A stretch of DNA of 64,000 bases, from IMG/VR virus record IMGVR_UViG_3300021141_000001. The stretch is one strand, 5' to 3'. Below, one piece after another: positions 8,284-62,397 of the stretch. Under the pieces are notes generated by a model. The model worked only from the letters and a program-made list of their open reading frames with translations, was not told where the DNA came from and searched no databases. Position numbers and translations under genes: made by a program. The stretch's first letter is position 1. Each line of letters starts with the position of its first letter. This DNA is from a virus.

Positions 8284-8844
8284 TCACTTCTCTTTTGAGA
8301 TTTTCTTTATATTATCCATCATATTCTTCTCTACATCGAGCATTTTTTTATTTAATGATGATTGGGCATCAGATATTTCTTTGGTTAACGATGCTATAGA
8401 AGCAGCATTTGTTGATATTCTATTAGTTATATCAGTTATTTTGCCAGTAACGGCTTGCTTTGTAGAGTCATCCTTAGATAATTTTAATTCTTCACTAAAA
8501 TCATCTTTTTTAACCTTATCATTCGCAATATCTTTTTGAATATTATTAACTTTTCTTGTTAAACTAGCAATGTGTAGATACTCAACTAAGAAAGGATTTC
8601 TATCCTGACCTGGTAAGGCATCTATTTTACCAACAATCGATTCTATTTTCTTTTGTAAGTCAGCATCTATTTTGATTGTTAGATATGCGGTGTCTATTAG
8701 AGGCTTCTTTGTTTTATATTCAGTAAGTTGATTTTTAAGAGTTGTCAACTTTTCTTTAGCCATTTTAATATCTGGTTGGTCTGTTATATTAACATCAAAT
8801 TCAGCTTCTTCTAAAAAGATTCTATATGATTTTAGGTTTCTCAT
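8284..8844 (-). CDS. Coiled-coil protein with capsid-targeting-like leader
   Basis: Starts MRNLKSYRIFLEE; heptad-rich. Confidence 0.6.
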   Translation of the reverse strand: MRNLKSYRIFLEEAEFDVNITDQPDIKMAKEKLTTLKNQLTEYKTKKPLIDTAYLTIKIDADLQKKIESIVGKIDALPGQDRNPFLVEYLHIASLTRKVNNIQKDIANDKVKKDDFSEELKLSKDDSTKQAVTGKITDITNRISTNAASIASLTKEISDAQSSLNKKMLDVEKNMMDNIKKISKEK

Positions 8845-11795
8845 TATTTCTTAATTATTGACGTATTTTTAATGTCATTAGCATTAATAATATTTGTAAA
8901 TCCACCGTTGACTCTTATTGAATTTGATGGATTTTTTAATTTAAATCTTGAGAATACTTCTTGTCCTTTGTCATCTTTTAACTTCTCTTGTAAAGTAAAG
9001 AAAGACTGAAAGTTTATCTCATCTTCTTTTCCACCTAATACAGATTTTGTAGATGGATTGTTTTTAGAACCATCAAATGATTGTATAAACTTAATAGAGT
9101 GACTACCACTTAAAAGGAATTTACCTTCTTTGTTGATAAGAGAAACTACTTTCATTCTGAATCCTTTTATTATGAATTGTTTGTTATTATCTTCTACTAA
9201 GTCAGTTTTTATAGAATATTCTAGTTTATTCTTTTCCATTTTAATTGTATTTCCTGACTCTATAATATATTTCTTAAAGAATCCCATTGATCCACAGTAA
9301 CTAACATAAGCATATTCTGATTCTATTCCTTGTACATAGAAGTATATTTGTCTAGACTCACCATTTAACATAGTTTTAGCAGCAAAGAAGGTTCCTTCTA
9401 ATTCATCATTACTTTCAAATTTTAAAAGTTTATCAGTGAAGTCAAGATTTTTTTCTTTAGGCATACTGTCTGCTACTCCGTTTATTTCCTCAGCTTCTTT
9501 TTCTCCGCCCATTGTAAGTCCACCTTTTTCAAGTTTCTTTTTATCCGCGTCTGTAGGTCCAAAGTATTTTTCGATAAATTCAGCTTGTTTACCTTGAGTA
9601 GAATCACCACTTTTGCTTTTATATAAAGTATCACCATCAAGCATATCATTCATAAATCTTAAAAGATTTTTACCAGCTTCCTTTATATCATTTCCTTCGG
9701 ATGTTTTAAGAATAGTTTCTTCTCTAAATATCTTTTGATATTTTGTATCTTTAATTATATTCTGTACAGCATTTTCCCATTGATTAAATATCACGTTATT
9801 TCTATATGGTCCACCACTAGCACCTGCGCTATCGGGAGAACCACCACCAAATGATGTGTATTCCATAAATGTTTTGTTAGAAACTTTACCACCACTTCTT
9901 CCAGTTGAAATAACTTGAGTTGTGTGTAGCTTATAAGCGCGGTTAAATACTTTTATTATTTCAATAATTGGATCAAGTCCAGTTATTGTAACAGCATCTC
10001 TCTTTTCAGCTTTTTCAATAGAAATTCTGATTTTTTCAGATTGTGATCTAGTTAGTACAAACTCTTTAATATCAACTTTTTTATCCCACCAATCTTTAAT
10101 CTTTTGAGATGTTGTCATATTAACTGGATCCGAAACTTCACCTTGAGTCTCTTCAGCTTCTTTTATATATGATAAAAATTTGTTATATCTGTTAATAATA
10201 GACTCTTTTGTTAATTCAGATTCTTTTTTAGAATATTCTTTACCATCACTTGTTGTGAAGAAGTAAGAACCATCTTTTACTTTTTCAATCTTTTTAGATA
10301 TTTCTTTACCTTCTTTATTTTTCCATTTAACAACATCACCAACTTTGAATTTAGTTTCAGTTGTTGGTACTTCTGCCTTTTGTTCTGATGGTTTTACAGT
10401 CATTATTGACTTGATACCTTCTACAAATGTTTGTAAACCTTTACCTGTTTCTCCTAAACCACCGTATAATCCTTCTTTGTCAAATTGTAAAGCAGTTTTA
10501 GCAAATCTTGCTATTTTCTCAGCTACAACAATTTTTTTGTTTTTATCTGAGATTATTTCCATACTTTCTTTATATAAAGGAGTAGTAGAAGCATTTAATG
10601 TTTCTTTTTTATCACCAACTAAATATCTGTTGATTTCTGTAAAAAGAGATTTAATAACTTCTTTGTTTTTAGAATCCAGTGATTTTGATGTTATATCATT
10701 TAAGAATTTAACATCTACACCAATACCTTTATCTTTTGGGGATTCTAATACTTCAATAGTCTTTTTTAATTTAGTAAAAGCCTGAGTTAAATGATCTTCT
10801 CCACCTTTTACATTTGCTCTATCTGGGCTAGCACCATCACCTAAGGCTTCGGCTAGAATATAACTCTCCATTACAAGAACTAACCCAGCAGGCATTGTTT
10901 GATTATCTTTTGGATATTTTGCCAAAATTTGAGTGTTTTTAGTTCTAATATCAGTTAATGCTAATTTTTTTGGATTAGCTTTTGTATTTTTTTGTATTTT
11001 TTCAACAGTATCTCCAGCTACAGTGGTATATGTGAATTTGGTTGTAGATGTAGTTGTATCTTTTTTAACATCCATTAATTTAACTTCTTTGTAATGTGTT
11101 AATATATAAGATAGTGATTTAAGTGTTTTGATCATAGTAGGGTAAATAGCTTCTGATGATTTAGAACCTTCTGTATCTTCAGCGCCTTCACCTTCTTTAC
11201 CTTCTGTATCTTCACTTTCTAACTCATCAGTATCTTCTTCAGCACCACTTTCAGCACCGCCTTCATCATCTTTGAATTGATCCAAAAACTTTCTAAACTC
11301 CTTTAACTGATTTATTAAATTAAGAAGATTATCTTTATCCATTGATAATTCTTCAGCTGGTGTATTCTCAACTACATCTTCTATGTTTTTAATAGCCTCA
11401 TCTGTAAGTCTTTTTATTTCACCTACATTATCTTCTTTCTCTATAGAATTTTTAAGATTTTCTAAAAATGAGAATATAAGAACTTTGTTAAATTCTGCCT
11501 TTTCTTCTTTTGATAAACCTGATACTGCTGACTTTCCTAATAAGTCATCAAAAGCATCTTTTAATCTTCTGTTAACAGCTTTTATTCTAACTAAGTTAGC
11601 ACCTATCTTAGCTTTTCTAATAGTAGAGTTTATTAGTCTACCAAGTAATGAGTCATTCCAAGGAATATCATTGGCAAATGGTCCACTATCACCCTCGTTT
11701 ATAATTTCTAAATCTTTATTTTCTAAAGACTTATATTCATCTATTTTGTTTATGCTTCTTTTAAGGAACTCATCTCTATTACTAAGATACTTCAT
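8844..11795 (-). CDS. Large putative internal virion protein with LysM-like and SH3/KOW-like modules
   Basis: YTTVAGDTVEKI...PAGLVLVM (LysM-like); FKVGDVVKWK (SH3/KOW-like); late promoter. Confidence 0.55.
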   Translation of the reverse strand: MKYLSNRDEFLKRSINKIDEYKSLENKDLEIINEGDSGPFANDIPWNDSLLGRLINSTIRKAKIGANLVRIKAVNRRLKDAFDDLLGKSAVSGLSKEEKAEFNKVLIFSFLENLKNSIEKEDNVGEIKRLTDEAIKNIEDVVENTPAEELSMDKDNLLNLINQLKEFRKFLDQFKDDEGGAESGAEEDTDELESEDTEGKEGEGAEDTEGSKSSEAIYPTMIKTLKSLSYILTHYKEVKLMDVKKDTTTSTTKFTYTTVAGDTVEKIQKNTKANPKKLALTDIRTKNTQILAKYPKDNQTMPAGLVLVMESYILAEALGDGASPDRANVKGGEDHLTQAFTKLKKTIEVLESPKDKGIGVDVKFLNDITSKSLDSKNKEVIKSLFTEINRYLVGDKKETLNASTTPLYKESMEIISDKNKKIVVAEKIARFAKTALQFDKEGLYGGLGETGKGLQTFVEGIKSIMTVKPSEQKAEVPTTETKFKVGDVVKWKNKEGKEISKKIEKVKDGSYFFTTSDGKEYSKKESELTKESIINRYNKFLSYIKEAEETQGEVSDPVNMTTSQKIKDWWDKKVDIKEFVLTRSQSEKIRISIEKAEKRDAVTITGLDPIIEIIKVFNRAYKLHTTQVISTGRSGGKVSNKTFMEYTSFGGGSPDSAGASGGPYRNNVIFNQWENAVQNIIKDTKYQKIFREETILKTSEGNDIKEAGKNLLRFMNDMLDGDTLYKSKSGDSTQGKQAEFIEKYFGPTDADKKKLEKGGLTMGGEKEAEEINGVADSMPKEKNLDFTDKLLKFESNDELEGTFFAAKTMLNGESRQIYFYVQGIESEYAYVSYCGSMGFFKKYIIESGNTIKMEKNKLEYSIKTDLVEDNNKQFIIKGFRMKVVSLINKEGKFLLSGSHSIKFIQSFDGSKNNPSTKSVLGGKEDEINFQSFFTLQEKLKDDKGQEVFSRFKLKNPSNSIRVNGGFTNIINANDIKNTSIIKK

Positions 11796-17456: not shown

Positions 17457-17549
17457 TTAGAATTTTCCAAAGATTTGTCTATTCTGAACTTCATCAACAT
17501 ATTTTTGTATTTCTGCTAGATAGTTCCAAATATTTTTAAGGTATTTCAT
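17457..17549 (-). CDS. Unannotated 30-aa peptide MKYLKNIWNYLAEIQKYVDEVQNRQIFGKF
   Basis: ATG overlaps the clpS stop codon (TAATG); followed by a terminator. Confidence 0.55.
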   Translation of the reverse strand: MKYLKNIWNYLAEIQKYVDEVQNRQIFGKF

Positions 17550-19462: not shown

Positions 19463-20125
19463 ATGAAGCATATCAGAACATATGAAAACTATCGTATTAA
19501 AAAGAACAGAGAAGAAATCATTAAAGAATCGGTTCTTCAAGTAAACGATATTTACAAAGTAAAGACAATGATTGATATTCCTCAATCTTTAATCAATGCT
19601 TATGTGAAAAAAGTAAAAGACACTACAGGTAAAAACCTACGCACGTTCTTTGGTGATGTTGATATTGCTGAAGAAATTGTAAAGTTTATTAATATGGATA
19701 ACTTAGATGTTGAGAAAATTCCTGGTGGTGCTTTAATGGGTGGTGGTCAATCACAAACTCAAACACAACCTCAGGCTCAACCTCAAGTTCAAGTAGAGGC
19801 TCAACCTCAAGCTCAAACTCAAGAAGCTCCTCAGGCACAAGGTCAACCAGCTCAAACTCAAGAAGCTCCTCAAGCACAAGCTCAAGAAGCTCCAGCACAA
19901 GGTGAATTTGAAGAACCTCAAGCACAAGCTCAACCTGCTCAAGGTCAGGCTCAAGAAGCTCCAGCACAAGGAGAAGAAGCTCAACCAGCACAAGGACAAG
20001 CTCAACCAGCACAAGGACAAGCTCAACCAGCACAAGGACAAGCTCAACCAGCACAAGGTGAAGAAGAAGAAAAAGAAGAAGGTGAAGAAGAAAAAGAAGA
20101 AGGTGAAGAAGAATTACCTCTTTAA
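19463..20125 (+). CDS. Putative internal head protein with Q/A/P/E low-complexity tail
   Basis: MKHIRTYENY leader; late promoter; AQPAQGQ repeats. Confidence 0.6.
   Translation: MKHIRTYENYRIKKNREEIIKESVLQVNDIYKVKTMIDIPQSLINAYVKKVKDTTGKNLRTFFGDVDIAEEIVKFINMDNLDVEKIPGGALMGGGQSQTQTQPQAQPQVQVEAQPQAQTQEAPQAQGQPAQTQEAPQAQAQEAPAQGEFEEPQAQAQPAQGQAQEAPAQGEEAQPAQGQAQPAQGQAQPAQGQAQPAQGEEEEKEEGEEEKEEGEEELPL
19979..20058 (+). repeat. 21-bp coding tandem repeat (AQPAQGQ), about 3.8 copies
   Basis: gctcaaccagcacaaggacaa repeated perfectly. Confidence 0.9.
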
Positions 20126-20178: not shown

Positions 20179-20194
20179 ATTTAATATATACTTT

Positions 20195-20806
20195 ATGAAA
20201 TTCATTAAAACATTTGAGAGTCATAGTGGTGGAACATTAATTATAGTTGATGTTCAAAAATCATTTAGAAAGTTCTTTTCAGAAATGTATCTTAATGAAT
20301 TAAAGAAGTATTGTAATAACTTTCAAAATGTTTATCAAATTTGGGATAATCATACAGATGGTAAGAATGTAGATAAAGATTATTTATATGATGAAACACC
20401 TGTAATTCCTATTCATAAAGATCTTTATCATTTTACTAATCAAAAAGACCTTATTGAGAAAAGGTATAACTACAAAGTAGATGCTGATTTCTATAAGAAA
20501 GTATTAGATAAAGAAGTTTATGATGAAATTTCTGATAAAGAAGATAAGAGTTTATTAAAGAAAGGTGATATATTCAATACTAAAGAAGGAACTATTATTA
20601 CTTACATAAACAATAATCACGTTTGGTTTCACTGTCCTATAAAACTATATGAATTATTAAAGTCACTTAATGGTAAAGAAGTTACAATTGTCGGTGGTGC
20701 TGATTCTGAGTGTTTAGAAGATGTTGTTACTACTGCTGAGAGTTTAGGAGTTAAAATTAAAAGAGATTATAAGTATATTTATACTGCTAATAGTTGCCCT
20801 ATTTAA
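20195..20806 (+). CDS. Cysteine hydrolase (isochorismatase/nicotinamidase-like) with capsid-targeting-like leader
   Basis: LIIVDVQ..F and VGGADSECLED; start MKFIKTFES. Confidence 0.65.
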   Translation: MKFIKTFESHSGGTLIIVDVQKSFRKFFSEMYLNELKKYCNNFQNVYQIWDNHTDGKNVDKDYLYDETPVIPIHKDLYHFTNQKDLIEKRYNYKVDADFYKKVLDKEVYDEISDKEDKSLLKKGDIFNTKEGTIITYINNNHVWFHCPIKLYELLKSLNGKEVTIVGGADSECLEDVVTTAESLGVKIKRDYKYIYTANSCPI

Positions 20807-21197
20807 TAAAATGTAGTAAGTACGGATCTTTTGAATCAACAACTGTGGCACCACATCTTTGCCAGAACTTTTTACTATCCTTTGTACATCTTACAAATAC
20901 CTCATCAATAAGATATATATCAAGTACTTTCTTAGCAAGATATTCACCTAATCCTTTACCTTTCATATCTGAAAATGCTGACATTATTTCAGGTTTACCG
21001 TAATTTGAATTTGGATTAACTTCTATTTCAACTATAGGTTTACCATCTAATCTTAATTGATAAAAATCGGTTTCACCTTTTTTAGCACCAAATGATGGTT
21101 TAAATAAAGTTTTTTCATCTGAAGTAACTTTATAAAACTCCATGTTAGATATTAGTTCATTATCAATATAAGACTCAAATGTTTTAATGTATCTCAT
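20799..21197 (-). CDS. GNAT acetyltransferase with capsid-targeting-like leader
   Basis: KGKGLGEYL (acetyl-CoA motif A) and SKKFWQRCG; start MRYIKTFESY. Confidence 0.7.
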   Translation of the reverse strand: MRYIKTFESYIDNELISNMEFYKVTSDEKTLFKPSFGAKKGETDFYQLRLDGKPIVEIEVNPNSNYGKPEIMSAFSDMKGKGLGEYLAKKVLDIYLIDEVFVRCTKDSKKFWQRCGATVVDSKDPYLLHFIK

Positions 21198-28808: not shown

Positions 28809-28840
28809 TAATATATACTCTATAAAAATTACAATTTTAA

Positions 28841-29317
28841 ATGAGACATTTAAGAAAATTTGAAGAACTTGATTATTCTACATATATGAGTGCTGCTGAT
28901 AAAATGGCTGGATATGGTCAAGTTAAGAAAGCAGAAGAAGTTAAATCACATGCTAAAAATATGGCTATGATGCTTATCAAAAATATGGAGTTTGATATTT
29001 TAGTTGGTAATGTTAAAGAATTTCCAATGGCAAAATTTCATACCGCTAGAATATTTAAATCAGGAACAGCTTGGACTCTTCAAGTTATGTTCGAATCTAA
29101 TGGTGGTTATACACATAGTGTGATGTCCAAGGCTACACCTGAAGGTGAAATTAGTTGGCAAGAAGGTAATAAATTTATGAATAGAAAATCTACAATTAAG
29201 TTTAATCAACTTATTGAACAACTTTGTCTTTTTCAACCAGATTTTGTTGGATACTTAAAAGAGTATAACTTAAATTCTGGAGATCTTAAATTAATACAAA
29301 GAACTTATTATTTATAA
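28841..29317 (+). CDS. Hypothetical protein with capsid-targeting-like leader
   Basis: Starts MRHLRKFEEL; late promoter. Confidence 0.6.
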   Translation: MRHLRKFEELDYSTYMSAADKMAGYGQVKKAEEVKSHAKNMAMMLIKNMEFDILVGNVKEFPMAKFHTARIFKSGTAWTLQVMFESNGGYTHSVMSKATPEGEISWQEGNKFMNRKSTIKFNQLIEQLCLFQPDFVGYLKEYNLNSGDLKLIQRTYYL

Positions 29318-29406: not shown

Positions 29407-31119
29407 ATGGCATCATATAATCAATTTACCGCAGGTTCAGGTCAAACAAATTTCGCCTACACCAACAGTGCTGTTGAGAATAAAGGACTTTTTAATAGAA
29501 TTTTAAGAGGTTTATCATCATATGGTATGAACTATGATGATATGATTGTTAGAAATCAAGTGGGTATTGGTATTAACGAAGATCCATATGCGGCTAGAGG
29601 TAACTCAATGTATGACTTCTTCTCTCAAAGAGCCGTAGCTTCTGTCTTAAATAGAAAATCAATTCCTTACTTAGATAAAGCTTATGGTGATAAAAGAAGA
29701 ATTTTAAGAGAATATTCAATTAAAGATGAAATTAGAGACTTTATTAGTTCATTAGCTGATGAAAGTATTGTTTATAATGATGAAAGAGATTTCTGTTCTC
29801 CTAAGCCTTTATCAAATGATTATTCACAAGAGATTAAAGATAAGTATCAAGAATATTTTGAAAAGATTTATAATAAGTTTGGATTCTCAGATAGTATTAC
29901 TGCCTGGAATATGATGAAAGACTTTTTAATTGATGGTTATTTAGCATTAGAAATTATCTATGATGATAAGAAAAAGAATATTATTGGTTTTAACAGATTA
30001 AGACCAGATACTTTAGTTCCAGCATTTGAACCATCCATTGGTCATTTATGGATTCAGTTTCCTGAAGATCCTCAATTGAGAAGAATCTTCTTAGACTCTC
30101 AGTTAGTTTATATTTCTTATTCATCTCAAAATGATTATTCAGAAACATCTTATGTAGAAGGTTTAATTAAACCTTATAACCAATTAAAGATTCTTGAGCA
30201 AACAAGAGTAATGTTTAACATTATTAATGCTACAGTTTATCAAAAGTTTACTATTCCTATTAAAGGTTTATCAAGACAAAGAGCTGAAGAACAAATTGGT
30301 CAATTAATCAATGATTATTCAGAAGAAGTTGAATGGGATGATTCATTAGGTACATTAACTATCAATGGGGCTAAACACTTACCTTATAATAAACAAATTT
30401 GGTTCCCTGAAGGAGATGCTGGTACACCAGCTATGGAATTAGTTTCACCTGAAGGACATAACTTAAATGAGTCGGATATGTTGACTTGGTTCTACAATGC
30501 CCTAAAAAGAGCTTCTAAGATTCCTTTCCAACGTTTTGATAAAGAAAATGGTGGTGGTAACTTAATCAATGACTCGGCTGATATGACGAGAGATGAGATT
30601 AAATTCTACAACTTTATTAATAGATTAAGAGCTAACTTCAAAGAACTTATTGTTAAGCCTTTAAAACTACAAATGTTAATTGAGTTTCCTGAGTTGAAAG
30701 AAGATGAGATTCTTATGAATCAAATTGATATTAATTTTAACTCGAATCAAGTATTTGAAGAATGGAAGAAATTAAATAACTTGGCTAAGAAAGCAGAAAT
30801 ATTTGGTACTTTAGTTGGAATTATGAATGGTGAAAAACCTTACTTCCACGTTGAGTATTTAATTGATAATGTATTTAAATTGACTCCAGAAGAAAAAGCC
30901 GAAAATCAAAAATACTGGGCTAAAGATGCTCTCGGTGTTGCTGGTGGTGGTGCGGCTGCCGCTGGTGCTGAAGGTGCTCCTGCTGAAGGTGCTCCTGCTG
31001 AAGGTGGTGAGGCTCCAGCTGAGGGTGGTGAAGCCGCTCCTGAGGCACAAGCCGCTCCTGAGGCACAAGCCGCTCCTGAAACTCCTCCTGCTGAAGGTGG
31101 TGGTGAATTTGAATTCTAA
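29407..31119 (+). CDS. gp20: Portal protein (gp20-like) with acidic Ala/Pro tail
   Basis: F.IDG, IKPYNQLKILE, L..ASKIP..R, TRDEIKF..FI.RLR..F. Confidence 0.92.
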   Translation: MASYNQFTAGSGQTNFAYTNSAVENKGLFNRILRGLSSYGMNYDDMIVRNQVGIGINEDPYAARGNSMYDFFSQRAVASVLNRKSIPYLDKAYGDKRRILREYSIKDEIRDFISSLADESIVYNDERDFCSPKPLSNDYSQEIKDKYQEYFEKIYNKFGFSDSITAWNMMKDFLIDGYLALEIIYDDKKKNIIGFNRLRPDTLVPAFEPSIGHLWIQFPEDPQLRRIFLDSQLVYISYSSQNDYSETSYVEGLIKPYNQLKILEQTRVMFNIINATVYQKFTIPIKGLSRQRAEEQIGQLINDYSEEVEWDDSLGTLTINGAKHLPYNKQIWFPEGDAGTPAMELVSPEGHNLNESDMLTWFYNALKRASKIPFQRFDKENGGGNLINDSADMTRDEIKFYNFINRLRANFKELIVKPLKLQMLIEFPELKEDEILMNQIDINFNSNQVFEEWKKLNNLAKKAEIFGTLVGIMNGEKPYFHVEYLIDNVFKLTPEEKAENQKYWAKDALGVAGGGAAAAGAEGAPAEGAPAEGGEAPAEGGEAAPEAQAAPEAQAAPETPPAEGGGEFEF

Positions 31120-34074: not shown

Positions 34075-36198
34075 ATGAAACCAGTATTAATTATAGAAAA
34101 TTCACAAAACTCTCTTATTAGAGAGAATAATGGTTCTACTAAGAAGGATTATATTTTAGGTGGTACGTTCACAGAGTTCGGTGTTAAAAACCGTAATGAG
34201 AGAATTTACACTGCTGATAAATTTCTTCCAGCTTTAGATGAATTAAATGAAAGAATGAGCAGTTTAGGCGTTGTTTACGGTGAGTTTGATCACCCAGATG
34301 TTTTTGACACATCTCTTTCTAGAGCATCACACATTATCACAAAAGCTAATTATGTAAAAGAATCAAATTTAGTTAATGGTGAAATTAGATTACTAAACAC
34401 TTATTGGGGTAAAGAAGCAAAGGCATTAGTTGATGACGGATGTCCTGTTTTCGTTTCTTCAAGAGCCGCTGGTATCACTGAATCAGATGGTACTGTTTCA
34501 TTGAAAAAATTATTTACATATGATATCGTTGCTGATCCAGGTTTTGCTTCTGCTAAAATGTCGGTTAAGAATATCAACGAATCATTAGGATATAATGAAA
34601 ACTCTAACTTTAGGATATATGAAATGTCCGATGAGTCCAAAATAAATCAACTATTTGATATGAACAAAAATGAATTTGTTACAAAGCAACAATTAACTGA
34701 ATATTCTCAGTATTTAGTTAAAGAACTAGCTTCTACAAAGAAAGAAGTTAAAGGTGCTCTTACTAAAGGTAATTTATCTCCAAAGAAAATGGAGCAACTT
34801 TTAGAGTACTATGAAGAGTTAAATTCTACTAATTCTCAAGTTGTTAAATATTTAGATTATTTGGCTGAAAAAGTTCAAATTATGGTTAATGAAAACAAGT
34901 CGTTAAAGGAAACTACTGACAAACTTATTAAACATAATGACTATTTAGCTGAAAATTTAGAAAAAGCTGTTAACTACTCTGAATACTTAGCTGAAAACTT
35001 AGACAAAAATATTGAGTATTCTGAATACTTAGCTGAAAATCTTGATAAGAATATTTCTTATTCAGAATATATCGCTGAAAATCTTGATAAGAACATTTCT
35101 TATTCTGAATACTTAGCTGAAAACTTAGACAAAAATATTGAGTACTCTGAGTACTTAGCTGAAAATCTTGATAAGAATATTGCTTATTCAGAATATATCG
35201 CTGAAAACTTAGACAAAAATATTTCTTACGCAGAATATATTGCTGAGCACGTTGATAATTCAATTGCTTATTCTGAATACTTAGCTGAACACGTTGAAGG
35301 TAACATCGCTTACTCTGAATACATTGCTGAACATTTAGATGATAATATTGCTTACTCTGAATACATTGCTGAAAATCTTGATAAATCAATTAACTACCAA
35401 GGTTTAATCGTTGAAAAATTAAATTCAAGAAAATTAAATGAATCAATGAGTGAAGAAGAAGAAGCTTTCCCATCATTACAAGCGGCAGGTTTTGAAAATA
35501 CTCAAGAAGATGAGAATGAAGAAGAAGAAAATGAAGAAGAAGCATACAATGGTATTGCTTCAGCTCATGAAGAAGAAGCATATAATAAAGAAGAAGAAGA
35601 TGAAGACTGTGGTCCATCTGCTACTGAAGAAGAAAATAATGATGAAGAAGCTCATGATTACAAAGTAACTGGTAACAGTGATTCTGAATTATCTGAGTCA
35701 ATCAACAAATTAATAGAAGAAGCTAAAAAACGTAAAGTTTCTGAATCAACTGACTTGAATTTCTTAAAATTCTTAAACAAGTCACAAGTAGATAGTTACT
35801 ACGCTTTGTCTGATGAAGACCAAGAGGCTGTTAAATTTCACATAAACGAAAGAAATTACTTCACATCTAAAGATGTGTTAAGCCTAATCGCAGAAGCGCT
35901 ATCATCAAAGAATGAATCTCTTGAAGAAAGAGTAATCAGATTAATGCCTGAAAACACTAAGGCTATCTGGAGTCAAATGAATGAATCTGCTAAAAAATCT
36001 ATCTTATCACAAGCTAGACTTTACCCAGCTGAAGTTTTAATGACTGAATCACAAGTTGAGCATTTCTGGTTAACTAGAAAGCTTAAAACAAACGAGTCTG
36101 TAACTAAAAAGTTAGTAGCTCATGAAAGTTTAATACAAGAAGATAAACTTTCTGATAATGACGTTACTGCGATTATGGAAAGATTCAAAAACATTTAA
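34075..36198 (+). CDS. gp21: Prohead protease (gp21-like) fused to a scaffold/core domain
   Basis: KNRNERIY, GEFDHP, VSSRAAG, TYDIVADPGF, followed by a long coiled-coil and acidic region. Confidence 0.88.
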   Translation: MKPVLIIENSQNSLIRENNGSTKKDYILGGTFTEFGVKNRNERIYTADKFLPALDELNERMSSLGVVYGEFDHPDVFDTSLSRASHIITKANYVKESNLVNGEIRLLNTYWGKEAKALVDDGCPVFVSSRAAGITESDGTVSLKKLFTYDIVADPGFASAKMSVKNINESLGYNENSNFRIYEMSDESKINQLFDMNKNEFVTKQQLTEYSQYLVKELASTKKEVKGALTKGNLSPKKMEQLLEYYEELNSTNSQVVKYLDYLAEKVQIMVNENKSLKETTDKLIKHNDYLAENLEKAVNYSEYLAENLDKNIEYSEYLAENLDKNISYSEYIAENLDKNISYSEYLAENLDKNIEYSEYLAENLDKNIAYSEYIAENLDKNISYAEYIAEHVDNSIAYSEYLAEHVEGNIAYSEYIAEHLDDNIAYSEYIAENLDKSINYQGLIVEKLNSRKLNESMSEEEEAFPSLQAAGFENTQEDENEEEENEEEAYNGIASAHEEEAYNKEEEDEDCGPSATEEENNDEEAHDYKVTGNSDSELSESINKLIEEAKKRKVSESTDLNFLKFLNKSQVDSYYALSDEDQEAVKFHINERNYFTSKDVLSLIAEALSSKNESLEERVIRLMPENTKAIWSQMNESAKKSILSQARLYPAEVLMTESQVEHFWLTRKLKTNESVTKKLVAHESLIQEDKLSDNDVTAIMERFKNI
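34975..35394 (+). repeat. 42-bp/14-aa coding tandem repeat, 10 copies
   Basis: YSEY(L/I)AENLDKNI(E/S/A) units. Confidence 0.92.
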
Positions 36199-36279
36199 TC
36201 TATAAAAAATCCACACTTGAAATTATTGAAATTTTGAAGGGTAATATATAGATAAACACAAAAAAAAATTAAAAAAATT

Positions 36280-37983
36280 ATGTCACACATTAGAATAGAC
36301 AAATCAAAAGCAGTTAAGAAATGGGCTCCAGTTTTGGAAAACATGGGTGTAACTGAAGATAGAGTAGAATGGATGTCAGAAATGGCTGAGTATCACTCAA
36401 TCAATGAAAATGCGTATGTAAACGCATCAAACGTAGCAGGTATGGGAGCTGTATTGAATCCAGTTGTTGGTTCATTAGCAGGTAATACATTAGCTACTTA
36501 CGCAAACGGTGGTGGTGTTGCTGGTTCTGGAGACGTAGGTCAAAACTTACTTCCAGTAGCTATGAAAATTGCTGCTCAAACAATCGGTTTAGACTTAGTA
36601 GCTGTTAAACCAACTCCAGGTCCAAAAATCGATTTATTATACATCGATTTCCAATACGATGATGTTAATAACTTAACAGATGGTTATGAAAAGCCACAAG
36701 TTTTCAAATTATATGCTAGTAACATTACTGACATCACTGCTCAAATCAGACTTGACGTTGCTGGTGCTGGTCCTTTAACTGCTTTACAAGAAACAACTGG
36801 TGGATTACAAGGTGGTAGATTATTCTACGGTATCACTGCTTCATCAGCATTTGTAAGTAACACTTTACCAGCATCTAAAACAAATATAGTTGAATTCTTA
36901 GGTTTCTCTCGTATCGATGGTTACCCAATGTTTAGAGTATTCAGACAAGCAAATACATCAGGTAACATTTCTGTTCCTCATACATTTGTTGCTGCTGACA
37001 ACACATTTGCTGCTTCAGGTAGTATGCTTTCTCAAATTTTAGGTTTAGCTGGTATCGTTCCTAACTCAGGAACAAAAGAAGTTCAATTAATCTCTGCTTT
37101 AGAAGATCATATCCCAGGATTTACATCAAACTGGACTGCTGCTTCAGGTGGTGCTTTAGGTAACTATCCAATGGATCGTGCTTCTGATGATAACAGTTAT
37201 GCTGGTGTTATCGGACCAAAAATCTCTTCTAAAACTGTAGCAGTTGGTACTATCGAAGTATCTTCAGCTCTTAGAAGAACTGAAATCGAAGATATCAAAG
37301 CTAACACAGGTATGGATATCGTTCAAAAAATGGAGTCTATCCTTGTTAACGAATTGTCTCAAACAATTTCTAAACAAATCGTTGCTAAAATCTTCGAAAT
37401 GGGTGCTCTTAATGCTGTTAACGCTCCTGCTGCGCCAGCTGGTTCTGCTAACTCTGGTGGTACTATCTTCGACTTGAACACTGCTTATGCTGCTACTACT
37501 TATGTTGGTGGTGAAACTACTCACGCTGTTCAACGTAAGTTAATCACTAAGATTGCTCACGCTTCTAACTACATTGCTACTGAAGGTCGTGTAGGTCCTG
37601 CTCAATACCTTATCACAAACGGAGGTCTTGCTGCTGCTTTACAAGATATCGCTGGTTACACAATTAACCCAGTTAAATCTAAATTAAACGGACAAGGTCA
37701 ATTATACCCTGTAGGTTCAATCGGAGACATCTCTATCTATGTAGATCCATATATGAGATATAACGATAACAGAATCGTGTTAGGTCGTAAGAACAACCCT
37801 GACCAACCAGGTATCATTTTCGTACCTTACTTAATGGCTCAGTCTATCTCAGTTATCTCTGAAGCTACATTCGCTCCAAGAATGTTGTTACGTTCAAGAT
37901 ACGCTGTAACTGAAGTTGGTTGGTTCCCACAAAAACAATATATGACTATTACAGTTACTGACGCTGCTCAGTTATTAAACTAA
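36280..37983 (+). CDS. gp23: Major capsid protein (gp23-like)
   Basis: KKWAPVLE, A..IG.DLV.VKP..GP, YVDPY, FVPY, F.PR....SRY; strongly biased codon usage. Confidence 0.92.
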   Translation: MSHIRIDKSKAVKKWAPVLENMGVTEDRVEWMSEMAEYHSINENAYVNASNVAGMGAVLNPVVGSLAGNTLATYANGGGVAGSGDVGQNLLPVAMKIAAQTIGLDLVAVKPTPGPKIDLLYIDFQYDDVNNLTDGYEKPQVFKLYASNITDITAQIRLDVAGAGPLTALQETTGGLQGGRLFYGITASSAFVSNTLPASKTNIVEFLGFSRIDGYPMFRVFRQANTSGNISVPHTFVAADNTFAASGSMLSQILGLAGIVPNSGTKEVQLISALEDHIPGFTSNWTAASGGALGNYPMDRASDDNSYAGVIGPKISSKTVAVGTIEVSSALRRTEIEDIKANTGMDIVQKMESILVNELSQTISKQIVAKIFEMGALNAVNAPAAPAGSANSGGTIFDLNTAYAATTYVGGETTHAVQRKLITKIAHASNYIATEGRVGPAQYLITNGGLAAALQDIAGYTINPVKSKLNGQGQLYPVGSIGDISIYVDPYMRYNDNRIVLGRKNNPDQPGIIFVPYLMAQSISVISEATFAPRMLLRSRYAVTEVGWFPQKQYMTITVTDAAQLLN

Positions 37984-38034: not shown

Positions 38035-38067
38035 CTTTTTAAAGAATTTGTAATTAATATATACACT

Positions 38068-38457
38068 ATGATAAAGAATTTTAATTTATTTAACGAATCT
38101 AAAAAAGACAAATTTCCTAATATTCAAAAATTAGAAATAGAAGGATTTGTTGTTTATGTTGGTAAAGATGCTAAATCTAATGATCATTTGACATTTAATG
38201 TTGCTGATAAAGAAGATATTTGGTTCCATGTTAAAGGTGTTCCAGGTAGTCACGTTGTTATTCGTGTAAGAGAAAATTTACCTACAGAAACTGTTATTAA
38301 ATCCGCGGCACAATTGGCTAAAAAGAATAGTAAAGGATCTAAAGAATCTAGTGTAACTGTTGTTTATTGTCAAAGAAGATTCGTTAAGAAAGAATCAGGT
38401 ATGAATGATGGTCAAGTTAAAGTAGATTATACAAATTCATATCAAATTGTAGTTTAA
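38068..38457 (+). CDS. Stand-alone NFACT-R (RqcH/FbpA RNA-binding) domain protein
   Basis: VGKDAKSND.LT, DIWFHVKGVPGSHV, AAQLA, V.Y...R.VKK; leader MIKNFNLFNES. Confidence 0.85.
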   Translation: MIKNFNLFNESKKDKFPNIQKLEIEGFVVYVGKDAKSNDHLTFNVADKEDIWFHVKGVPGSHVVIRVRENLPTETVIKSAAQLAKKNSKGSKESSVTVVYCQRRFVKKESGMNDGQVKVDYTNSYQIVV

Positions 38458-38492: not shown

Positions 38493-39848
38493 ATGGCAGA
38501 TACTAATGAACCTGTAAGAGTTAAATTTTCCGAAGAACTTCATGATTTATTAAAAGTTTTAGAAGATGAGAATAGTTATATCGCATTTGAAATGCTTTGG
38601 CTAAATGAACCTAATTCTAAATATCATAATGGTTTAGGAATTACTGATGTTAATATATCTAAGACAAAATCTTGTTTAGATGTTACATCTAGAGGTAAAG
38701 TACACCCTATGAAAATAGAAAATTTTATTAAATTTTACTTTAAAAATTATTTTCAAACTGCTGATATTCAAGATTTTATTGAACAATATGATATATTATC
38801 AGGTGGTGGTTCGGTTGAAAGTATTGCTGTTAATAGAATTACACCAGAACCTTTTACTTATAATCCTAAAGACGTTAGAAGTACATTTATTTCATTAGTT
38901 ACTAAGACATATCCTCACGGACACGAAGAAGAAGTAATGGCTTTTATGCCTAAATTGGATAAAGATATTGTAGGTAACTATTATAAGATTATTGGCGAGA
39001 ATTCAACAACAATGTTTACGTCTCACTTAGATACTGCTGATAGAAAACAAGGCATTACTAAACTTCTTTCTAAGAAAGATGATAAAGGTGATGAAATTAT
39101 CTATACAGATGGTTCTACTATATTAGGTGCTGATGATAAATCAGGTGTTGCTGTTATGCTTTATATGATGGCTCATAATGTACCAGGTCTTTATTACTTC
39201 TTTATGGGTGAAGAAAGAGGTGGTATTGGTTCAGGTTTATTATCTTCAGTGTATGAACAAGTTGAATATCTTAAAAATATTAAGAGATGTGTTTCTTTTG
39301 ATAGAAGAGATGTTTGTTCAGTTATCACTTCTCAATTAGGCAGAACTTGTTGTTCTGATCAATTTGGAACTGCTTTGGCTAAACAATATAATTCACACGG
39401 TCTTAATTTATCATTAGATCCAGGTGGTATATACACAGATTCTGCTTCATTTATTGACCAAATTCCTGAATGTACTAACATTTCAGTTGGTTATTATAGT
39501 GAACATACTGGTAAAGAAAGACAAAATATCAACTATTTAGAAAGACTTGCTAAAGCTAGTGTAAAAGTAAATTGGGATTCATTACCAACTACTAGAAAGA
39601 TAGGAATTGATGAAGAAACTATTAGAAAATATGGTAAGTTAATTAGTGATATAAAAGCAACACCATTTGGTATTGATGTTAAAATAGCATCTGATAGAGC
39701 TACTACATTTATTCAATGTGATTTAGAAGAAGGTTATATTGATGAAACATATGAGGCTTTAACAACATTACAATTCTTATTAAACAAACACAAAGTAAGT
39801 CAAAAGGTTTATTTTGACGCAGAATACATAAAAATAGATTTACTATAA
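38493..39848 (+). CDS. M28/M20-like zinc peptidase, paralogue 1
   Basis: SHLDT, GADDKSG, GEERG, FDRR, EHT. Confidence 0.8.
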   Translation: MADTNEPVRVKFSEELHDLLKVLEDENSYIAFEMLWLNEPNSKYHNGLGITDVNISKTKSCLDVTSRGKVHPMKIENFIKFYFKNYFQTADIQDFIEQYDILSGGGSVESIAVNRITPEPFTYNPKDVRSTFISLVTKTYPHGHEEEVMAFMPKLDKDIVGNYYKIIGENSTTMFTSHLDTADRKQGITKLLSKKDDKGDEIIYTDGSTILGADDKSGVAVMLYMMAHNVPGLYYFFMGEERGGIGSGLLSSVYEQVEYLKNIKRCVSFDRRDVCSVITSQLGRTCCSDQFGTALAKQYNSHGLNLSLDPGGIYTDSASFIDQIPECTNISVGYYSEHTGKERQNINYLERLAKASVKVNWDSLPTTRKIGIDEETIRKYGKLISDIKATPFGIDVKIASDRATTFIQCDLEEGYIDETYEALTTLQFLLNKHKVSQKVYFDAEYIKIDLL

Positions 39849-40294
39849 TGAAACTTAAAAAATTTAATCAATTATTTGAACGTGAGGGTTTTGATGATAT
39901 CGATGGATATGATTATGAAGATGATTACGATTATTCAAGAGAAGATGAATATAAAGGTGATGATGATGATTCAGATGATGATATGTCACATCTTTGTTAT
40001 CTTTTAAGATCCATGTTTAATAATAGTAATGTAGATGTTAATGTTGAAAATAGTGGATTGGATTTATCTATTACAGCTCAATTTGCTAGAAGAGAATCAC
40101 TTAGTGATATTGTTAAAGTATTTGAAATTGTTAGAAAAATTAAAAAAGACGTTTTAGCTCAATATTCTTCTTCTTATGAAATATGGGAAACTAAAACAGG
40201 TACGCCTATGATTACATTTGAATTTATGTTAGAAGACGATGATGATAAAGATGGTGTAGTTACTGATGATAAGAACGATGATTATCCTTGGTAA
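39848..40294 (+). CDS. Acidic protein with capsid-targeting-like leader
   Basis: Starts MKLKKFNQLFE. Confidence 0.6.
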   Translation: MKLKKFNQLFEREGFDDIDGYDYEDDYDYSREDEYKGDDDDSDDDMSHLCYLLRSMFNNSNVDVNVENSGLDLSITAQFARRESLSDIVKVFEIVRKIKKDVLAQYSSSYEIWETKTGTPMITFEFMLEDDDDKDGVVTDDKNDDYPW

Positions 40295-58762: not shown

Positions 58763-58818
58763 TATAAACTTTAATAGGTCATTAAAGTATAAATTAAAAA
58801 TTAAAAATTAAAAATAAT

Positions 58819-60001: not shown

Positions 60002-60003
60002 AT

Positions 60004-60519
60004 TTATTTAGTCTTACTTGAAATCCAAGCACTGGCTAGTATAGAAATAGTTAAGGCCATTGCGCCAGTAAAAACTCCCCAGAAATTATTATTTATAACA
60101 CCACTAACAATCATAAATATTGACAAAATTGGACCTCCAAGTCCAAAAATATATGAAAAGAATTTCAATAATTTCTCTTTAATATAGTCACCAAGACCTT
60201 CTTGAACTGCCTCAAGTTCTTTATCTTTATTTCTCATTATTATTTCTCTATCTAACCACTCTTTTACTAATACTGGATTTGTTAAATCTTCTAAAGTACA
60301 TCCAAACTTTTCAGTTAATTTTTCTAACTCTTCAGAGACTTTTAATTTATCCAAACTATTCATTTTATTTATTATGTCAGTAGTCTCATGCTTAATTTTC
60401 ACATCTTCTTCTTTGTTTAAGTGTAAATCCTCAACATTATATTGATATAAATCTTTATCATGAAAATGTAGATGAGTAGTGTTCTCATTAAATTGTTTAA
60501 AGGTCTTTATTGATTTCAT
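60004..60519 (-). CDS. Two-TM protein with capsid-targeting-like leader
   Basis: MKSIKTFKQFNE; C-terminal hydrophobic hairpin. Confidence 0.6.
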   Translation of the reverse strand: MKSIKTFKQFNENTTHLHFHDKDLYQYNVEDLHLNKEEDVKIKHETTDIINKMNSLDKLKVSEELEKLTEKFGCTLEDLTNPVLVKEWLDREIIMRNKDKELEAVQEGLGDYIKEKLLKFFSYIFGLGGPILSIFMIVSGVINNNFWGVFTGAMALTISILASAWISSKTK

Positions 60520-60534
60520 TCTAAATTTAATATT

Positions 60535-62397
60535 TTAATGTGCGTGAACAAAACTATAGAATCCTTTACATACATTCGGTAATAAAGGAGCTTTACTTGC
60601 TAAATTTTTACCCCAAGAAGTCTCTGTAAAGATATATCCAAGAGTTGCTAAAATTAAAAGTATCAGTGATATTGTCTCAAATGCTGCGTGTAATCCAGGT
60701 ATAGCATGTGTGAAAAGAGATACTAAGAAGGCTAAAAGGAGACTACCGGCTCCAATCGCTAATCCTTTCCAATTAATTCCCTTTCCTTCTCCACCTTCTG
60801 ATTCGTTAACTTTTTTGAAATCTTCAAATTTACTCACTCTGGATTCCTTGGCTATGGGAATGCCAACTTCTGCCAAAACTTCTTTAGATTTTTCCACTGC
60901 TCCACCTAGCCCAATCATTTCACCAGATTTCTCAATCCATTCTCCTGGTAAATGTGTCGTTAAGGCAAATGATTCAGCAGCAACTCCTGCTATAAAGCCA
61001 ATTAATGTACCAATCATTGTAAATTTAGCAGCGTATGAAACAAGATTTTTCGCACCTTCATATAAAACCCCTAATTTACCTGATAACCACGCTGGTAAAG
61101 CGGCCATTCCTTTTGCCACAACCTCTCCGAGAATTTCCATAAGTTTTCCAAAAGGTGATAAAACCCATAATACTAAATTTTTAACCCAGCCTTTAATTCC
61201 TCTCGATTCGGTTTTTTTACCTTCTTTTTCAACTTGTTCTTCTGTATTGTCAGCCTCAAATATCTTCTCAATTTTAGTTTCGTGAAGTTTAATGAGTTCA
61301 ATTGTATCAAAATTTCTATTCATTGACATATACCCTTTAAGAGAGTCCCAAATAAAACTATCATTGACAACTTCTTTTTTATCTTCTTTTTCAGGAGTAG
61401 ATTCTTTACCTTCTTCAGAATTTCCTTCTTCTCCTGTCGATAAAATTTTATTAGCCGAAGAACTTGCTACTTCCTCAAATGACCCACCAACCGATCCACT
61501 TATTTCACCTCTGAAATATTTCACCATATCTTTGACATCCGCACCAACTGTCTTCACTTCTTCGCCTAATTTAGTGGCATCTACTTTTTCCCCTAATTTT
61601 GTCATTTTCTGAAGTTTAGGCTTCAACCCTGGTAATACTTTTACAGCATGTGTTTTTATGAAACCCCAAACTTTCATCAATACTTCTTTAATCTTAGCCC
61701 AAATCTCTTTAACTATATTAGCAATTTTTTGTGCAAAATCCTTTAATGAGGCATAAACTCCGTCAAATATAGATTTGGATGTTTTCATAAAATCATCAAT
61801 TGAATTGAGAACCTTTTTTGCGGTTGTTTCAATAGCAGCTACTACTTCTGGACCAAATAGTTTTGTTGCTACATTTTTAAGAGCCTCAAGTCCAGGTTTG
61901 AAAATATCTTCAACAATAGAGTCCCAAACAACTTTAGCACTTGAAGAAAGAAAGTTCCAAATCTTAGATAGACCTTTTTTAACAACTTCAGTTCCTGCAT
62001 TTACCTTATCTTTAATCCAATCTACTAAACCTTCACTCATTATAATTGACTCTAAGTTTTCCTCAATTAATTTTATATCAGCTTCTGAAATGTTTTTACT
62101 TTCTAAATAAGTTCTTGTTTCTTTTGCAATATCTTTTATTCCGTCTTGATAAAACTTAGCACACACCATGTTCTTAGTATCCTGAAGTAATTCCTTATCT
62201 TCTAGAATAAGACCATAACTTTCATTGATTCTTATGTTATTTTTAAGATGAATTGTTACAACATCATGTTTTTTACCTTCATAGCAGATTGATTCAAATT
62301 CTCTTATCTTCATATCATTAATGAAACTAATCTTTTGGGCTCTTTTAGTAGCCATTTGCTTTAAGTAAAAATCATTGTATCGATTAAGTCTTGCCAT
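60535..62397 (-). CDS. Large amphipathic-helix membrane protein (candidate ejection protein)
   Basis: Trp-spaced helices (SKIWNFL, VVWDSI, EIWAKI, KVWGFI), C-terminal TM segments, internal VSKFEDFKKVNE. Confidence 0.5.
   Translation of the reverse strand: MARLNRYNDFYLKQMATKRAQKISFINDMKIREFESICYEGKKHDVVTIHLKNNIRINESYGLILEDKELLQDTKNMVCAKFYQDGIKDIAKETRTYLESKNISEADIKLIEENLESIIMSEGLVDWIKDKVNAGTEVVKKGLSKIWNFLSSSAKVVWDSIVEDIFKPGLEALKNVATKLFGPEVVAAIETTAKKVLNSIDDFMKTSKSIFDGVYASLKDFAQKIANIVKEIWAKIKEVLMKVWGFIKTHAVKVLPGLKPKLQKMTKLGEKVDATKLGEEVKTVGADVKDMVKYFRGEISGSVGGSFEEVASSSANKILSTGEEGNSEEGKESTPEKEDKKEVVNDSFIWDSLKGYMSMNRNFDTIELIKLHETKIEKIFEADNTEEQVEKEGKKTESRGIKGWVKNLVLWVLSPFGKLMEILGEVVAKGMAALPAWLSGKLGVLYEGAKNLVSYAAKFTMIGTLIGFIAGVAAESFALTTHLPGEWIEKSGEMIGLGGAVEKSKEVLAEVGIPIAKESRVSKFEDFKKVNESEGGEGKGINWKGLAIGAGSLLLAFLVSLFTHAIPGLHAAFETISLILLILATLGYIFTETSWGKNLASKAPLLPNVCKGFYSFVHAH

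What the first reader, a model, noticed from the sequence alone, without database searches (positions are those of the whole stretch)
8284..62397. Shared capsid-targeting-like leader on about 10 unrelated proteins, suggesting a packaged effector cargo
Seen: the N-termini MRNLKSYRIFLEE (8844-), MKYLKNIWNYLAE (17549-), MKHIRTYENY (19463+), MKFIKTFES (20195+), MRYIKTFESY (21197-), MRHLRKFEE (28841+), MIKNFNLFNES (38068+), MKLKKFNQLFE (39848+) and MKSIKTFKQFNE (60519-), with weaker copies MKYLSNRDEF (11795-) and MARLNRYNDF (62397-). Internal copies are IINRYNKFLSYIKE and VSKFEDFKKVNE. The consensus is M-K/R-x-I/L-K-x-F/Y-(x)-E, and most of these genes follow the AATATATA late promoter. Known: T4 internal proteins use a short capsid-targeting sequence (MKTYQEFIAE) that gp21 removes after Glu. 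Inference: this phage grafts such a tag onto a GNAT, a cysteine hydrolase, an NFACT-R domain and membrane proteins so that they are packaged and injected with the DNA.
Basis: partly seen in the sequence, partly recalled or inferred. Interest (0 to 1): 0.82.

Follow-up and report, generated by a model that had tools for sequence, protein, structure and literature searches.

The report
T4-like capsid-loading tag, huge phage
Eight or so unrelated proteins in this piece of an uncultivated huge phage, and about a tenth of all genes in its 635-kb relative, start with the same short peptide, which resembles the phage T4 tag that loads proteins into the head and is then clipped off; no experiment has tested this.

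Summary
Every listed peptide is at its coordinates. Six gene starts fit M-[KR]-x-[IL]-[KR]-x-[FY], against 0.5 expected. Two more (38068+, 39848+) belong to minor variants that are enriched in relatives. Three (17549-, 11795-, 62397-) stay weak.

In the relative LR745206, about 94-115 of 947 ORFs carry the tag. It is conserved as protein, not as RNA. It is unstructured in two AlphaFold models and sits on 84 unrelated bodies, almost all without a Pfam domain. Tagged genes lie in arrays and are enriched behind the promoter that also precedes the capsid, portal and terminase genes.

The window encodes T4-type portal, gp21-like protease and gp23-like capsid protein. The tag keeps hydrophobic residues at positions 4 and 7, the T4 targeting determinants, and ends in Glu-Ser/Asn. 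The same signature occurs in the capsid propeptide, at the protease domain boundary, in the scaffold repeats and at domain junctions of fused homologues. Homologues of one tagged enzyme exist with no tag or with another lineage's tag.

Best reading (about 0.6): a T4-type capsid-targeting and cleavage tag, expanded about 30-fold. Packaging and injection are not shown. This scan noted the same tag earlier on related DNA.

The parts
8284..8844 (-). 186-aa coiled-coil-like protein with the tag MRNLKSYRIFLEE. It lies in the late operon just upstream of the tail sheath gene.
   Evidence: The LR745206 orthologue starts MKYLKKYKIFLE at 48% overall identity.
19463..20125 (+). 220-aa protein with the tag MKHIRTYENY and a long Gln/Ala/Pro/Glu-rich tail.
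   Evidence: Score 6 of 6. The orthologue keeps the tag. The promoter lies 25 nt upstream.
20195..20806 (+). 203-aa isochorismatase-like (Asp-Lys-Cys) hydrolase with the tag MKFIKTFES.
   Evidence: The AlphaFold model has pLDDT 87. Residues 1-12 are coil with pLDDT about 49, and the body starts at strand 13-18. D19, K89 and C173 are nearly invariant. Fold hits are weak. Homologues occur with and without the tag.
20799..21197 (-). 132-aa GNAT-fold protein with the tag MRYIKTFESY.
   Evidence: The AlphaFold model has pLDDT 81, and residues 1-12 are coil. Foldseek finds 59 GNAT hits at E <= 0.001. E8 and S9 are nearly invariant in the orthologues.
28841..29317 (+). 158-aa protein of unknown fold with the tag MRHLRKFEE, directly upstream of the portal gene.
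   Evidence: Score 6 of 6. It has its own late promoter.
60004..60519 (-). 171-aa protein with the tag MKSIKTFKQFNEN and a hydrophobic C-terminus.
38068..38457 (+). 129-aa NFACT-R protein with the short variant tag MIKNFNLFNES. This is the type that dominates in LR756501.
   Evidence: Pfam NFACT-R_1 at 7e-18, covering residues 23-119. The variant is enriched in relatives.
39848..40294 (+). 148-aa very acidic protein with the variant tag MKLKKFNQLFERE, two genes after the capsid gene.
   Evidence: The variant M[KR][LI][KRN][KR][FY] starts 8 genes in LR745206 against 0.1-0.3 expected.
8844..11795 (-). 983-aa protein with a weak N-terminal copy (MKYLSNRDEF) and an internal tag-like copy at residue 533 (bases 10158-10199).
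   Evidence: The part conserved with LR745206 begins exactly at residue 533.
60535..62397 (-). 620-aa tape-measure-like protein with a weak copy (MARLNRYNDF) and an internal copy ending VNE-S at residue 521 (bases 60802-60837).
17457..17549 (-). 30-aa ORF starting MKYLKNIWNYLAE. It is doubtful as a gene.
   Evidence: LR745206 has no space for it between the terminase and ClpS genes.
34075..36198 (+). Prohead protease (gp21-like) fused to a scaffold-like region with 11 repeats of YSEY[LI]AENLDKNI. It is the presumed receptor and processing enzyme for the tag.
   Evidence: PHROG head maturation protease at 2.5e-30. BLASTP against T4 gp21 gives E 7e-6, with the His and Ser motifs aligned. The repeats and NE[SN] sites are enriched.
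36280..37983 (+). gp23-like major capsid protein with a T4-like propeptide and a conserved [IML]-x-E-N site near residue 53.
   Evidence: Pfam Gp23 at 5.9e-28. Alignment with T4 gp23 and five relatives.
29407..31119 (+). gp20-like portal protein.
   Evidence: Pfam Portal_T4 at 2.6e-57.

Best explanation
The peptide is a T4-type capsid-targeting sequence joined to a prohead-protease cleavage site.

Proposed steps, all inferred:
1. The tagged proteins are made late in infection.
2. The unstructured N-terminal tag, through its conserved hydrophobic residues at positions 4 and 7, binds the assembling prohead core. That core is built from the gp21-like protease-scaffold fusion.
3. The protein is enclosed by the gp23-like shell.
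4. The protease cuts after the conserved Glu, before Ser or Asn, and frees the mature protein inside the head.
5. The protein enters the next host cell with the DNA.

Shown here:
- The tag is real, portable, specific to each phage lineage and under purifying selection as a peptide.
- It is not part of the folded domain.
- The phage has T4-type head machinery.
- A Glu-Ser/Asn signature links the end of the tag to the probable protease substrates.

Not shown: binding, packaging, cleavage and injection.
For: 1. Reality and scale.
- In LR745206 a six-feature score is bimodal at gene starts: 771, 827, 384, 115, 22, 35 and 60 genes for scores 0 to 6.
- Position 3 was not used to select the genes, yet it is Tyr or His in 64 of 67.

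2. Selection acts on the peptide.
- Synonymous codon use at most tag positions equals genome usage; K2 gives p 0.77 and K5 p 0.72.
- In 120 orthologues, F7 and E8 are invariant.
- Entropy is 0.60 bits in the tag, 1.76 in the linker and 0.47 in the body.

3. Portability.
- With the tag removed, 94 tagged proteins fall into 84 BLAST clusters.
- Homologues of the 20195 hydrolase start directly at the first strand, or carry the tag of another lineage.
- Six fused homologues have tag, extra domain(s), a hydrophobic-N-E-S junction (S-E-S in one) and then the body.
- The tag is coil with pLDDT about 50 in two AlphaFold models.

4. T4 context.
- Portal, protease, capsid protein and terminase are all of T4 type.
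- The real T4 tags are MKTYQEFIAE (IPII, IPIII) and MKTFKEF... (IPI).
- In T4, residues 4 and 7 direct targeting and residues 8 and 10 direct processing (PMC9026906).

5. Cleavage signature.
- Ser follows the first Glu of the tag in 43% of cases and Asn in 15%; the background is 7% and 6%.
- The capsid propeptide has a conserved [IML]-x-E-N.
- INE-S at the end of the protease domain aligns with T4 ITE-S.
- The protease-scaffold is the only protein with three or more NES.
- In the cultured relative MA9V-2, 5-8 genes start MK.FF.F[IV]NE[SA]. Six of the 10 internal copies of that core lie in the protease-scaffold and the capsid protein.

6. Expression and gene class.
- The promoter AATATATA precedes 45% of tagged genes and 16% of untagged genes (p 6e-10). 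It also precedes the capsid, portal and terminase genes.
- Only 2 of 94 tagged proteins have a Pfam hit, one of them a cell-wall peptidase. A length-matched control set of 94 untagged proteins hit 50 families.
- Tagged genes sit in tandem arrays: 29 adjacent pairs against 9.3 expected. I recall, but did not check here, that the T-even internal-protein loci are arranged the same way.
Against: - No virion proteome or experiment exists for this clade.
- About 10% of all genes is far more cargo than any studied phage carries.
- The commonest short form (..K-T-F-E-S) has no hydrophobic residue three places before the cut, which the T4 rule [LI]-x-E requires.
- Similarity between the tag and the scaffold repeat is no better than for shuffled tags (p 0.29). 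A simple mimicry model is therefore not supported.
- Tagged proteins are more acidic than the rest. From my recollection, not checked here, T4 IPII and IPIII are basic.
- Weak copies sit on probable tail proteins.
- The resemblance to the T4 tag rests on about five positions of a ten-residue peptide, too short for a homology test.
Confidence: 0.6

Rival explanations
1. The tag is an address or handle for a partner other than the prohead core. Candidates are a phage chaperone, a timed-degradation system, an oligomerisation helix, or another intracellular assembly.
For: Everything that shows a portable, lineage-specific, peptide-level tag fits this reading equally well. The large number of carriers and their acidity are unlike the T4 internal proteins. 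The window also encodes a ClpS adaptor.
Against: This reading does not explain three things. The end of the tag shares the Glu-Ser/Asn signature with the capsid propeptide, the protease boundary and the scaffold. Fused cargo is joined by hydrophobic-N-E-S sites. The pattern matches the T4 tag at the positions that were functionally mapped. ClpS recognises N-terminal Phe, Leu, Trp or Tyr, not Met-Lys (established knowledge).
Confidence: 0.2
2. The carriers are one fast-diverging paralogue family. Only the N-terminus stayed recognisable, so the shared peptide reflects common descent rather than grafting.
For: Tagged genes lie in tandem arrays. 98% have no Pfam domain. Five pairs and one group of six are still related.
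Against: At least four unrelated folds carry the tag: GNAT, Asp-Lys-Cys hydrolase, NFACT-R and Peptidase_M15. The hydrolase family has many members with no tag and members with the tags of other lineages. Common descent would still leave the strong selection on the tag unexplained.
Confidence: 0.08
3. The conservation acts on the mRNA. The sequence would be a translation-initiation or regulatory element for late, partly leaderless transcripts.
For: The promoter ends only 4-6 nt before the ATG in many genes. 31% of such genes carry the tag, against 18% where the promoter lies further away.
Against: Synonymous sites vary as in the rest of the genome at most tag positions, and Leu4 uses five codons; only Tyr3 and Phe7 deviate mildly. 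Substitutions are conservative at the protein level: K/R, L/I, F/Y. Fifty-five untagged genes have the same close promoter. The capsid, portal and terminase genes, which share the promoter, lack the tag.
Confidence: 0.03
4. The pattern is a chance or compositional effect of AT-rich N-termini.
For: Met-Lys starts are common in this 29% GC genome.
Against: Six genes match against 0.5 expected in the window. The score distribution is bimodal. A DNA pattern for the tag gave 30 matches and its reversed control none in LR745206.
Confidence: 0.01

Closest known systems
Capsid targeting sequence (CTS) of phage T4 internal proteins IPI, IPII and IPIII (Mullaney and Black 1996, as reviewed in PMC3012670, PMC5694885 and PMC9026906)
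   Same: - It is a 10-20-residue N-terminal peptide on otherwise unrelated proteins.
- The pattern is M-K-x-hydrophobic-(K/Q)-x-F...E, with key residues at positions 4 and 7.
- It ends at a Glu.
- The phage has gp20, gp21 and gp23-type head genes.
- The carriers are poorly conserved proteins of unknown fold.
   Different: - There are about 100 carriers per genome instead of 3-4.
- The consensus is MK[YH][LI]Kx[FY], not MKT[YF][QK]EF.
- The residue after the cut is Ser or Asn, not Ala.
- The short form has no Leu or Ile three places before the Glu.
- Carriers are mostly acidic.
- The scaffold is fused to the protease.
- Multi-domain fusions are joined by N-E-S sites.
- Nothing has been tested experimentally.
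N-terminal propeptides of head and ejection proteins in phiKZ, 201phi2-1 and SPN3US (PMC5694885, PMC9026906)
   Same: These are giant phages with a gp21-related protease that cuts after Glu. Their propeptides are thought to target proteins into the prohead, and the head holds many different proteins.
   Different: Those propeptides are mostly longer than 100 residues, are not a shared short consensus, and are cut at S/A-x-E. About 8-20 proteins are processed, not about 100. The capsid lineage is different.
Encapsulin cargo-loading peptides (established knowledge, not tested here)
   Same: A short, portable terminal peptide directs unrelated enzymes into an HK97-fold protein shell.
   Different: The encapsulin peptide is usually C-terminal, binds the shell protein itself and is not cleaved. 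Encapsulins have no scaffold, protease or DNA.

Membership tests
T4-type capsid targeting sequence | A short N-terminal peptide shared by otherwise unrelated proteins | tested here: met
   The consensus spans 9-13 residues. Ninety-four carriers fall into 84 body clusters. Four different folds carry it. It is disordered in AlphaFold models.
T4-type capsid targeting sequence | Targeting determinants at residues 4 and 7: hydrophobic or aromatic residues after Met-Lys | tested here: met
   T4 has Y/F at position 4 and F at 7, with the roles described in PMC9026906. Here position 4 is L/I and position 7 is F/Y. F7 is invariant in 120 orthologues. This is agreement of pattern only.
T4-type capsid targeting sequence | The tag ends in a gp21-type cleavage site, [LI]-x-E followed by a small residue | tested here: inconclusive
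   A Glu lies at positions 8-14 in 93 of 94 tags and is followed by Ser or Asn in 58%. The forms FNE-S, IFE-S and FIKE-S fit the rule. The common form TFE-S lacks the hydrophobic residue three places before the cut.
T4-type capsid targeting sequence | The phage builds its head with a gp20 portal, a gp21 protease, a scaffold core and a gp23 shell | tested here: met
   Pfam Portal_T4 at 2.6e-57 and Gp23 at 5.9e-28. PHROG protease at 2.5e-30. BLASTP against T4 gp21 gives 7e-6 with the catalytic motifs aligned, and the capsid propeptide is T4-like.
T4-type capsid targeting sequence | Tagged proteins are present in virions in processed form | not testable with these tools
   There is no cultured member of the clade and no proteome. 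The MA9V-1 paper reports SDS-PAGE only.
T4-type capsid targeting sequence | The tag alone suffices to load a foreign protein | not testable with these tools
   This needs an experiment.
phiKZ/SPN3US-type long propeptides | A propeptide of about 80-270 residues cut at S/A-x-E | tested here: not met
   The tag is 9-13 residues, and the body fold starts at residue 13.
Sec, Tat or lipoprotein signal peptides | A hydrophobic core of 7-15 residues after a charged N-terminus | tested here: not met
   The tag alternates charged and aromatic residues and is followed by an acidic linker.

The most novel reading that the evidence does not exclude
Huge phages of this clade load about 100 different proteins, roughly 10% of their coding capacity and mostly of unknown fold, into the capsid. 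They would do so through a T4-like N-terminal tag, some as multi-domain precursors cut at hydrophobic-N-E-S junctions. If so, the whole set of injected proteins of an uncultivated phage could be read from its genome sequence.
Probability: 0.45. Interest if true: 0.8.

Novelty: new variant of a known kind. Interest (0 to 1): 0.64.

Why it matters
Most genes of huge phages have no known role. If the tag marks capsid cargo, about a tenth of those genes would get a location and a timing at once: made late, packed in the head, and delivered at the start of the next infection. They would then be prime candidates for anti-defence and host-takeover proteins.

It would also show that the T4 loading system is old and scalable. 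It would predict a cleavage rule (Glu followed by Ser or Asn) that mass spectrometry can check. A cultured relative that carries a version of the tag, Chryseobacterium phage MA9V-1/2, makes the test practical.

I found no paper in the held library that describes this tag in huge phages.

Tried and rejected
- Tag as a copy of one scaffold repeat. A profile of the 11 repeats scores tagged N-termini above untagged ones (p 1e-7) but not above shuffled tags (p 0.29). The similarity is therefore compositional.
- mRNA-level signal. Rejected on codon usage.
- Same tag in cultured or gut relatives. PTm1, MA9V-2 and Lak-B1 show no excess of the MK.[LI]K.[FY] DNA pattern. MA9V-2 has its own version of the tag. 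PTm1 shows at most one or two candidates. Lak was not analysed further.
- Pfam and PHROGs on the tagged proteins. Almost nothing was found.
- Foldseek for the 20195 model. No hit reached E <= 0.001. The hydrolase assignment rests on weak hits plus the conserved triad.
- Residue tally around every Glu in the protease-scaffolds. My script was offset by one position, and I do not use those numbers.
- Tools not available.
Full report
**What the window is.** The window has 29% GC and about 74 genes. It is syntenic with bases 165-230 kb of LR745206, an uncultured 635-kb phage, at about 76% DNA identity over the protease-capsid stretch that was searched. It is more distantly related to LR756500-LR756504, the Lak phages, and the cultured Bacteroidota jumbo phages MA9V-1/2 and PTm1. 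It holds a T4-type morphogenesis module:
- terminase, 15285-17432
- gp20-like portal, 29407-31119
- gp21-like protease fused to a repeat-rich scaffold, 34075-36198
- gp23-like capsid protein, 36280-37983
- tail sheath, 4311-8216

The protease aligns with real T4 gp21 at 28% identity (E 7e-6), including the GE..HP and VSSR motifs. The capsid protein begins with a T4-like propeptide.

**The observation.** All listed peptides are at their coordinates.
- Six gene starts fit M[KR].[IL][KR].[FY]. The expectation is 0.49 if N-terminal positions were independent and 0.02 from the internal frequency.
- 38068+ and 39848+ belong to two minor variants, MIKx[FY] and M[KR][LI]xK[FY]. Both are enriched at N-termini in LR745206.
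- The copy at 17549- is a 30-aa ORF with no counterpart in LR745206.
- 11795- and 62397- are weak.

**Scale.** I fetched all of LR745206 and scored every ORF start on six features.
- The distribution is bimodal: 22 genes at score 4, 35 at score 5 and 60 at score 6.
- Position 3 was not used for selection, yet it is Tyr or His in 64 of 67.
- With the minor variants included, about 94-115 of 947 ORFs carry the tag.
- A DNA pattern for the tag gave 30 hits, and its reversed control gave none.

**What kind of signal it is.**
- Synonymous codon use at most tag positions matches the genome. Tyr3 and Phe7 deviate mildly (p 2e-4 and 0.01).
- In 120 orthologues of the 20195 protein, F7 and E8 never change. 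The tag is about as conserved as the enzyme body (0.60 against 0.47 bits), while the five residues between them are variable (1.76 bits).
- AlphaFold models of the 20195 and 21197 proteins leave residues 1-12 as low-confidence coil in front of well-predicted domains.
- The tag is therefore a selected peptide that is not part of the fold.

**Portability.**
- With the tag removed, 94 carriers form 84 BLAST clusters.
- The 21197 protein has a GNAT fold.
- The 20195 protein has a conserved Asp-Lys-Cys triad and weak isochorismatase/nicotinamidase fold matches.
- 38068 is an NFACT-R protein.
- One LR745206 carrier is a Peptidase_M15.
- A search of 1.8 billion representative proteins with the 20195 protein found three kinds of homologue. 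Some begin directly at the first strand with no tag. Some carry differently spelled tags. Six longer proteins are built as tag, one or two extra domains, a hydrophobic-N-E-S junction (S-E-S in one), and then the hydrolase body.
- The LR756501 orthologue carries that phage's own tag type.
- Tag spelling follows the phage lineage:
  - MK[YH][LI]Kx[FY] here and in LR756504
  - MIKx[FY]..[FY]I[NK]E in LR756501
  - MKYIKEYEEF[LI]NE in LR756500
  - MK.FF.F[IV]NE[SA] in MA9V-2
  - MKT[YF][QK]EF in T4

**Link to the head protease.**
- The first Glu of the tag is followed by Ser (43%) or Asn (15%), against 7% and 6% after other Glu residues.
- The capsid propeptide of all five huge phages has [IML]-x-E-N near residue 53.
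- The end of the protease domain reads INE-S where T4 gp21 reads ITE-S.
- The scaffold repeats read Y[LI]AE-N 11 times.
- The protease-scaffold is the only protein in LR745206 with three or more NES tripeptides.
- In MA9V-2, six of the ten internal copies of the tag-end motif lie in the protease-scaffold and the capsid protein.
- The commonest short form, TFE-S, does not fit the T4 rule of Leu or Ile three places before the cut. Cleavage therefore remains an inference.

**Expression and gene class.**
- AATATATA lies within 60 nt upstream of 45% of tagged genes and 16% of untagged genes (p 6e-10).
- The same motif precedes the capsid, portal and terminase genes, so it is reasonably read as a late promoter.
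- Those structural genes, and enzymes such as ClpS, the clamp loader, glutamine synthetase and the DNA methylase, lack the tag.
- Only 2 of 94 tagged proteins match any Pfam family. Ninety-four length-matched controls matched 50 families.
- Tagged genes form tandem arrays.
- Tagged proteins are more acidic than the rest, and few have membrane-like segments.

**Comparison with what is known.**
- In T4 the first ten residues of IPIII suffice for loading into the prohead core. Residues 4 and 7 matter for targeting, residues 8 and 10 for processing, and gp21 removes the tag (PMC9026906; PMC3012670; PMC5694885).
- T-even internal proteins are described as diverse proteins that share only the targeting sequence.
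- The tag here has the same position, length and key residues, and the same machinery around it.
- It differs in spelling, in the residue after the cut, in the fused protease-scaffold, in the junction-linked fusions, and above all in number.
- I found no paper that describes it in huge phages.
- Earlier notes of this scan describe the same tag on related DNA and the protease-scaffold repeats on this window. I re-derived both independently.

**Verdict.**
Packaging and injection are untested.
- I put it at about 0.6. The main rival is a different partner for the same portable tag.

Noticed in passing
window 34075-36198 (+): The prohead protease is fused to a scaffold-like region. That region holds 11 tandem 14-residue repeats (YSEY[LI]AENLDKNI), then an acidic stretch and a C-terminal helical part. 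No separate gp22-like gene lies before the capsid gene. Relatives have the same fusion with other repeats (PTm1: W[IL]..FTKELSEG; MA9V-2: many hydrophobic-N-E-S sites).
   Followed up: partly
window, e.g. 20183-20190, 28810-28817, 36243-36250, 38056-38063 (+): The promoter-like motif T(A/T)AATATATA occurs at two fixed distances from the ATG. One class is 4-6 nt away, which would give leaderless or nearly leaderless mRNAs. The other is 17-29 nt away and is followed by a shared A-rich stretch (..TAAAAAATTA..). In LR745206 there are 84 genes in the close class (1-7 nt; 81 of them at 4-6 nt) and 88 in the class 9-35 nt away.
   Followed up: partly
window 17552-17833 (-): The phage encodes a ClpS adaptor (Pfam 5.5e-20). 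It is followed by a 30-aa ORF with a tag-like start that overlaps its stop codon.
   Followed up: no
window 25725-26819 (-), 31614-33494 (-), 40819-41322 (+), 17856-18374 (-), 51840-55475 (-): Cell-like genes sit among the structural genes: a glutamine-synthetase-like protein, an RNase II/R-like protein (RNB, CSD2 and S1 domains), a NADAR domain protein, a HAD domain of RNA-repair type, and a 1211-aa protein with several glycosyltransferase domains.
   Followed up: no
proteins P0121-P0126 (metagenomic homologues of window 20195-20806): These fused forms carry the tag, one or two extra domains of at least three kinds, and the hydrolase body. Five of the six have NE[SN] a few residues before the body, and four of those have no other NE[SN] anywhere in the protein. 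They look like precursors meant to be cut.
   Followed up: partly
L037 (T4 NC_000866, 18966-19130, minus strand): T4 gp61.1 is a 54-aa hypothetical protein that begins MKTFKEFIKE. That is as close to the T4 targeting sequence as IPI is.
   Followed up: no
window 19463-20125 (+): After the tag and a 90-residue domain, this protein has about 100 residues of Gln/Ala/Pro/Glu repeats and a Glu-rich end.
   Followed up: no
L035 (MA9V-2) 3984-4790 and 7774-8022: Two of the MA9V-2 genes with a tag-like start (MKNFFSFINEA, MKTFTYFINEA) lie in the head module. One sits between the portal and protease genes, where T4 has the prohead core genes 67 and 68.
   Followed up: partly
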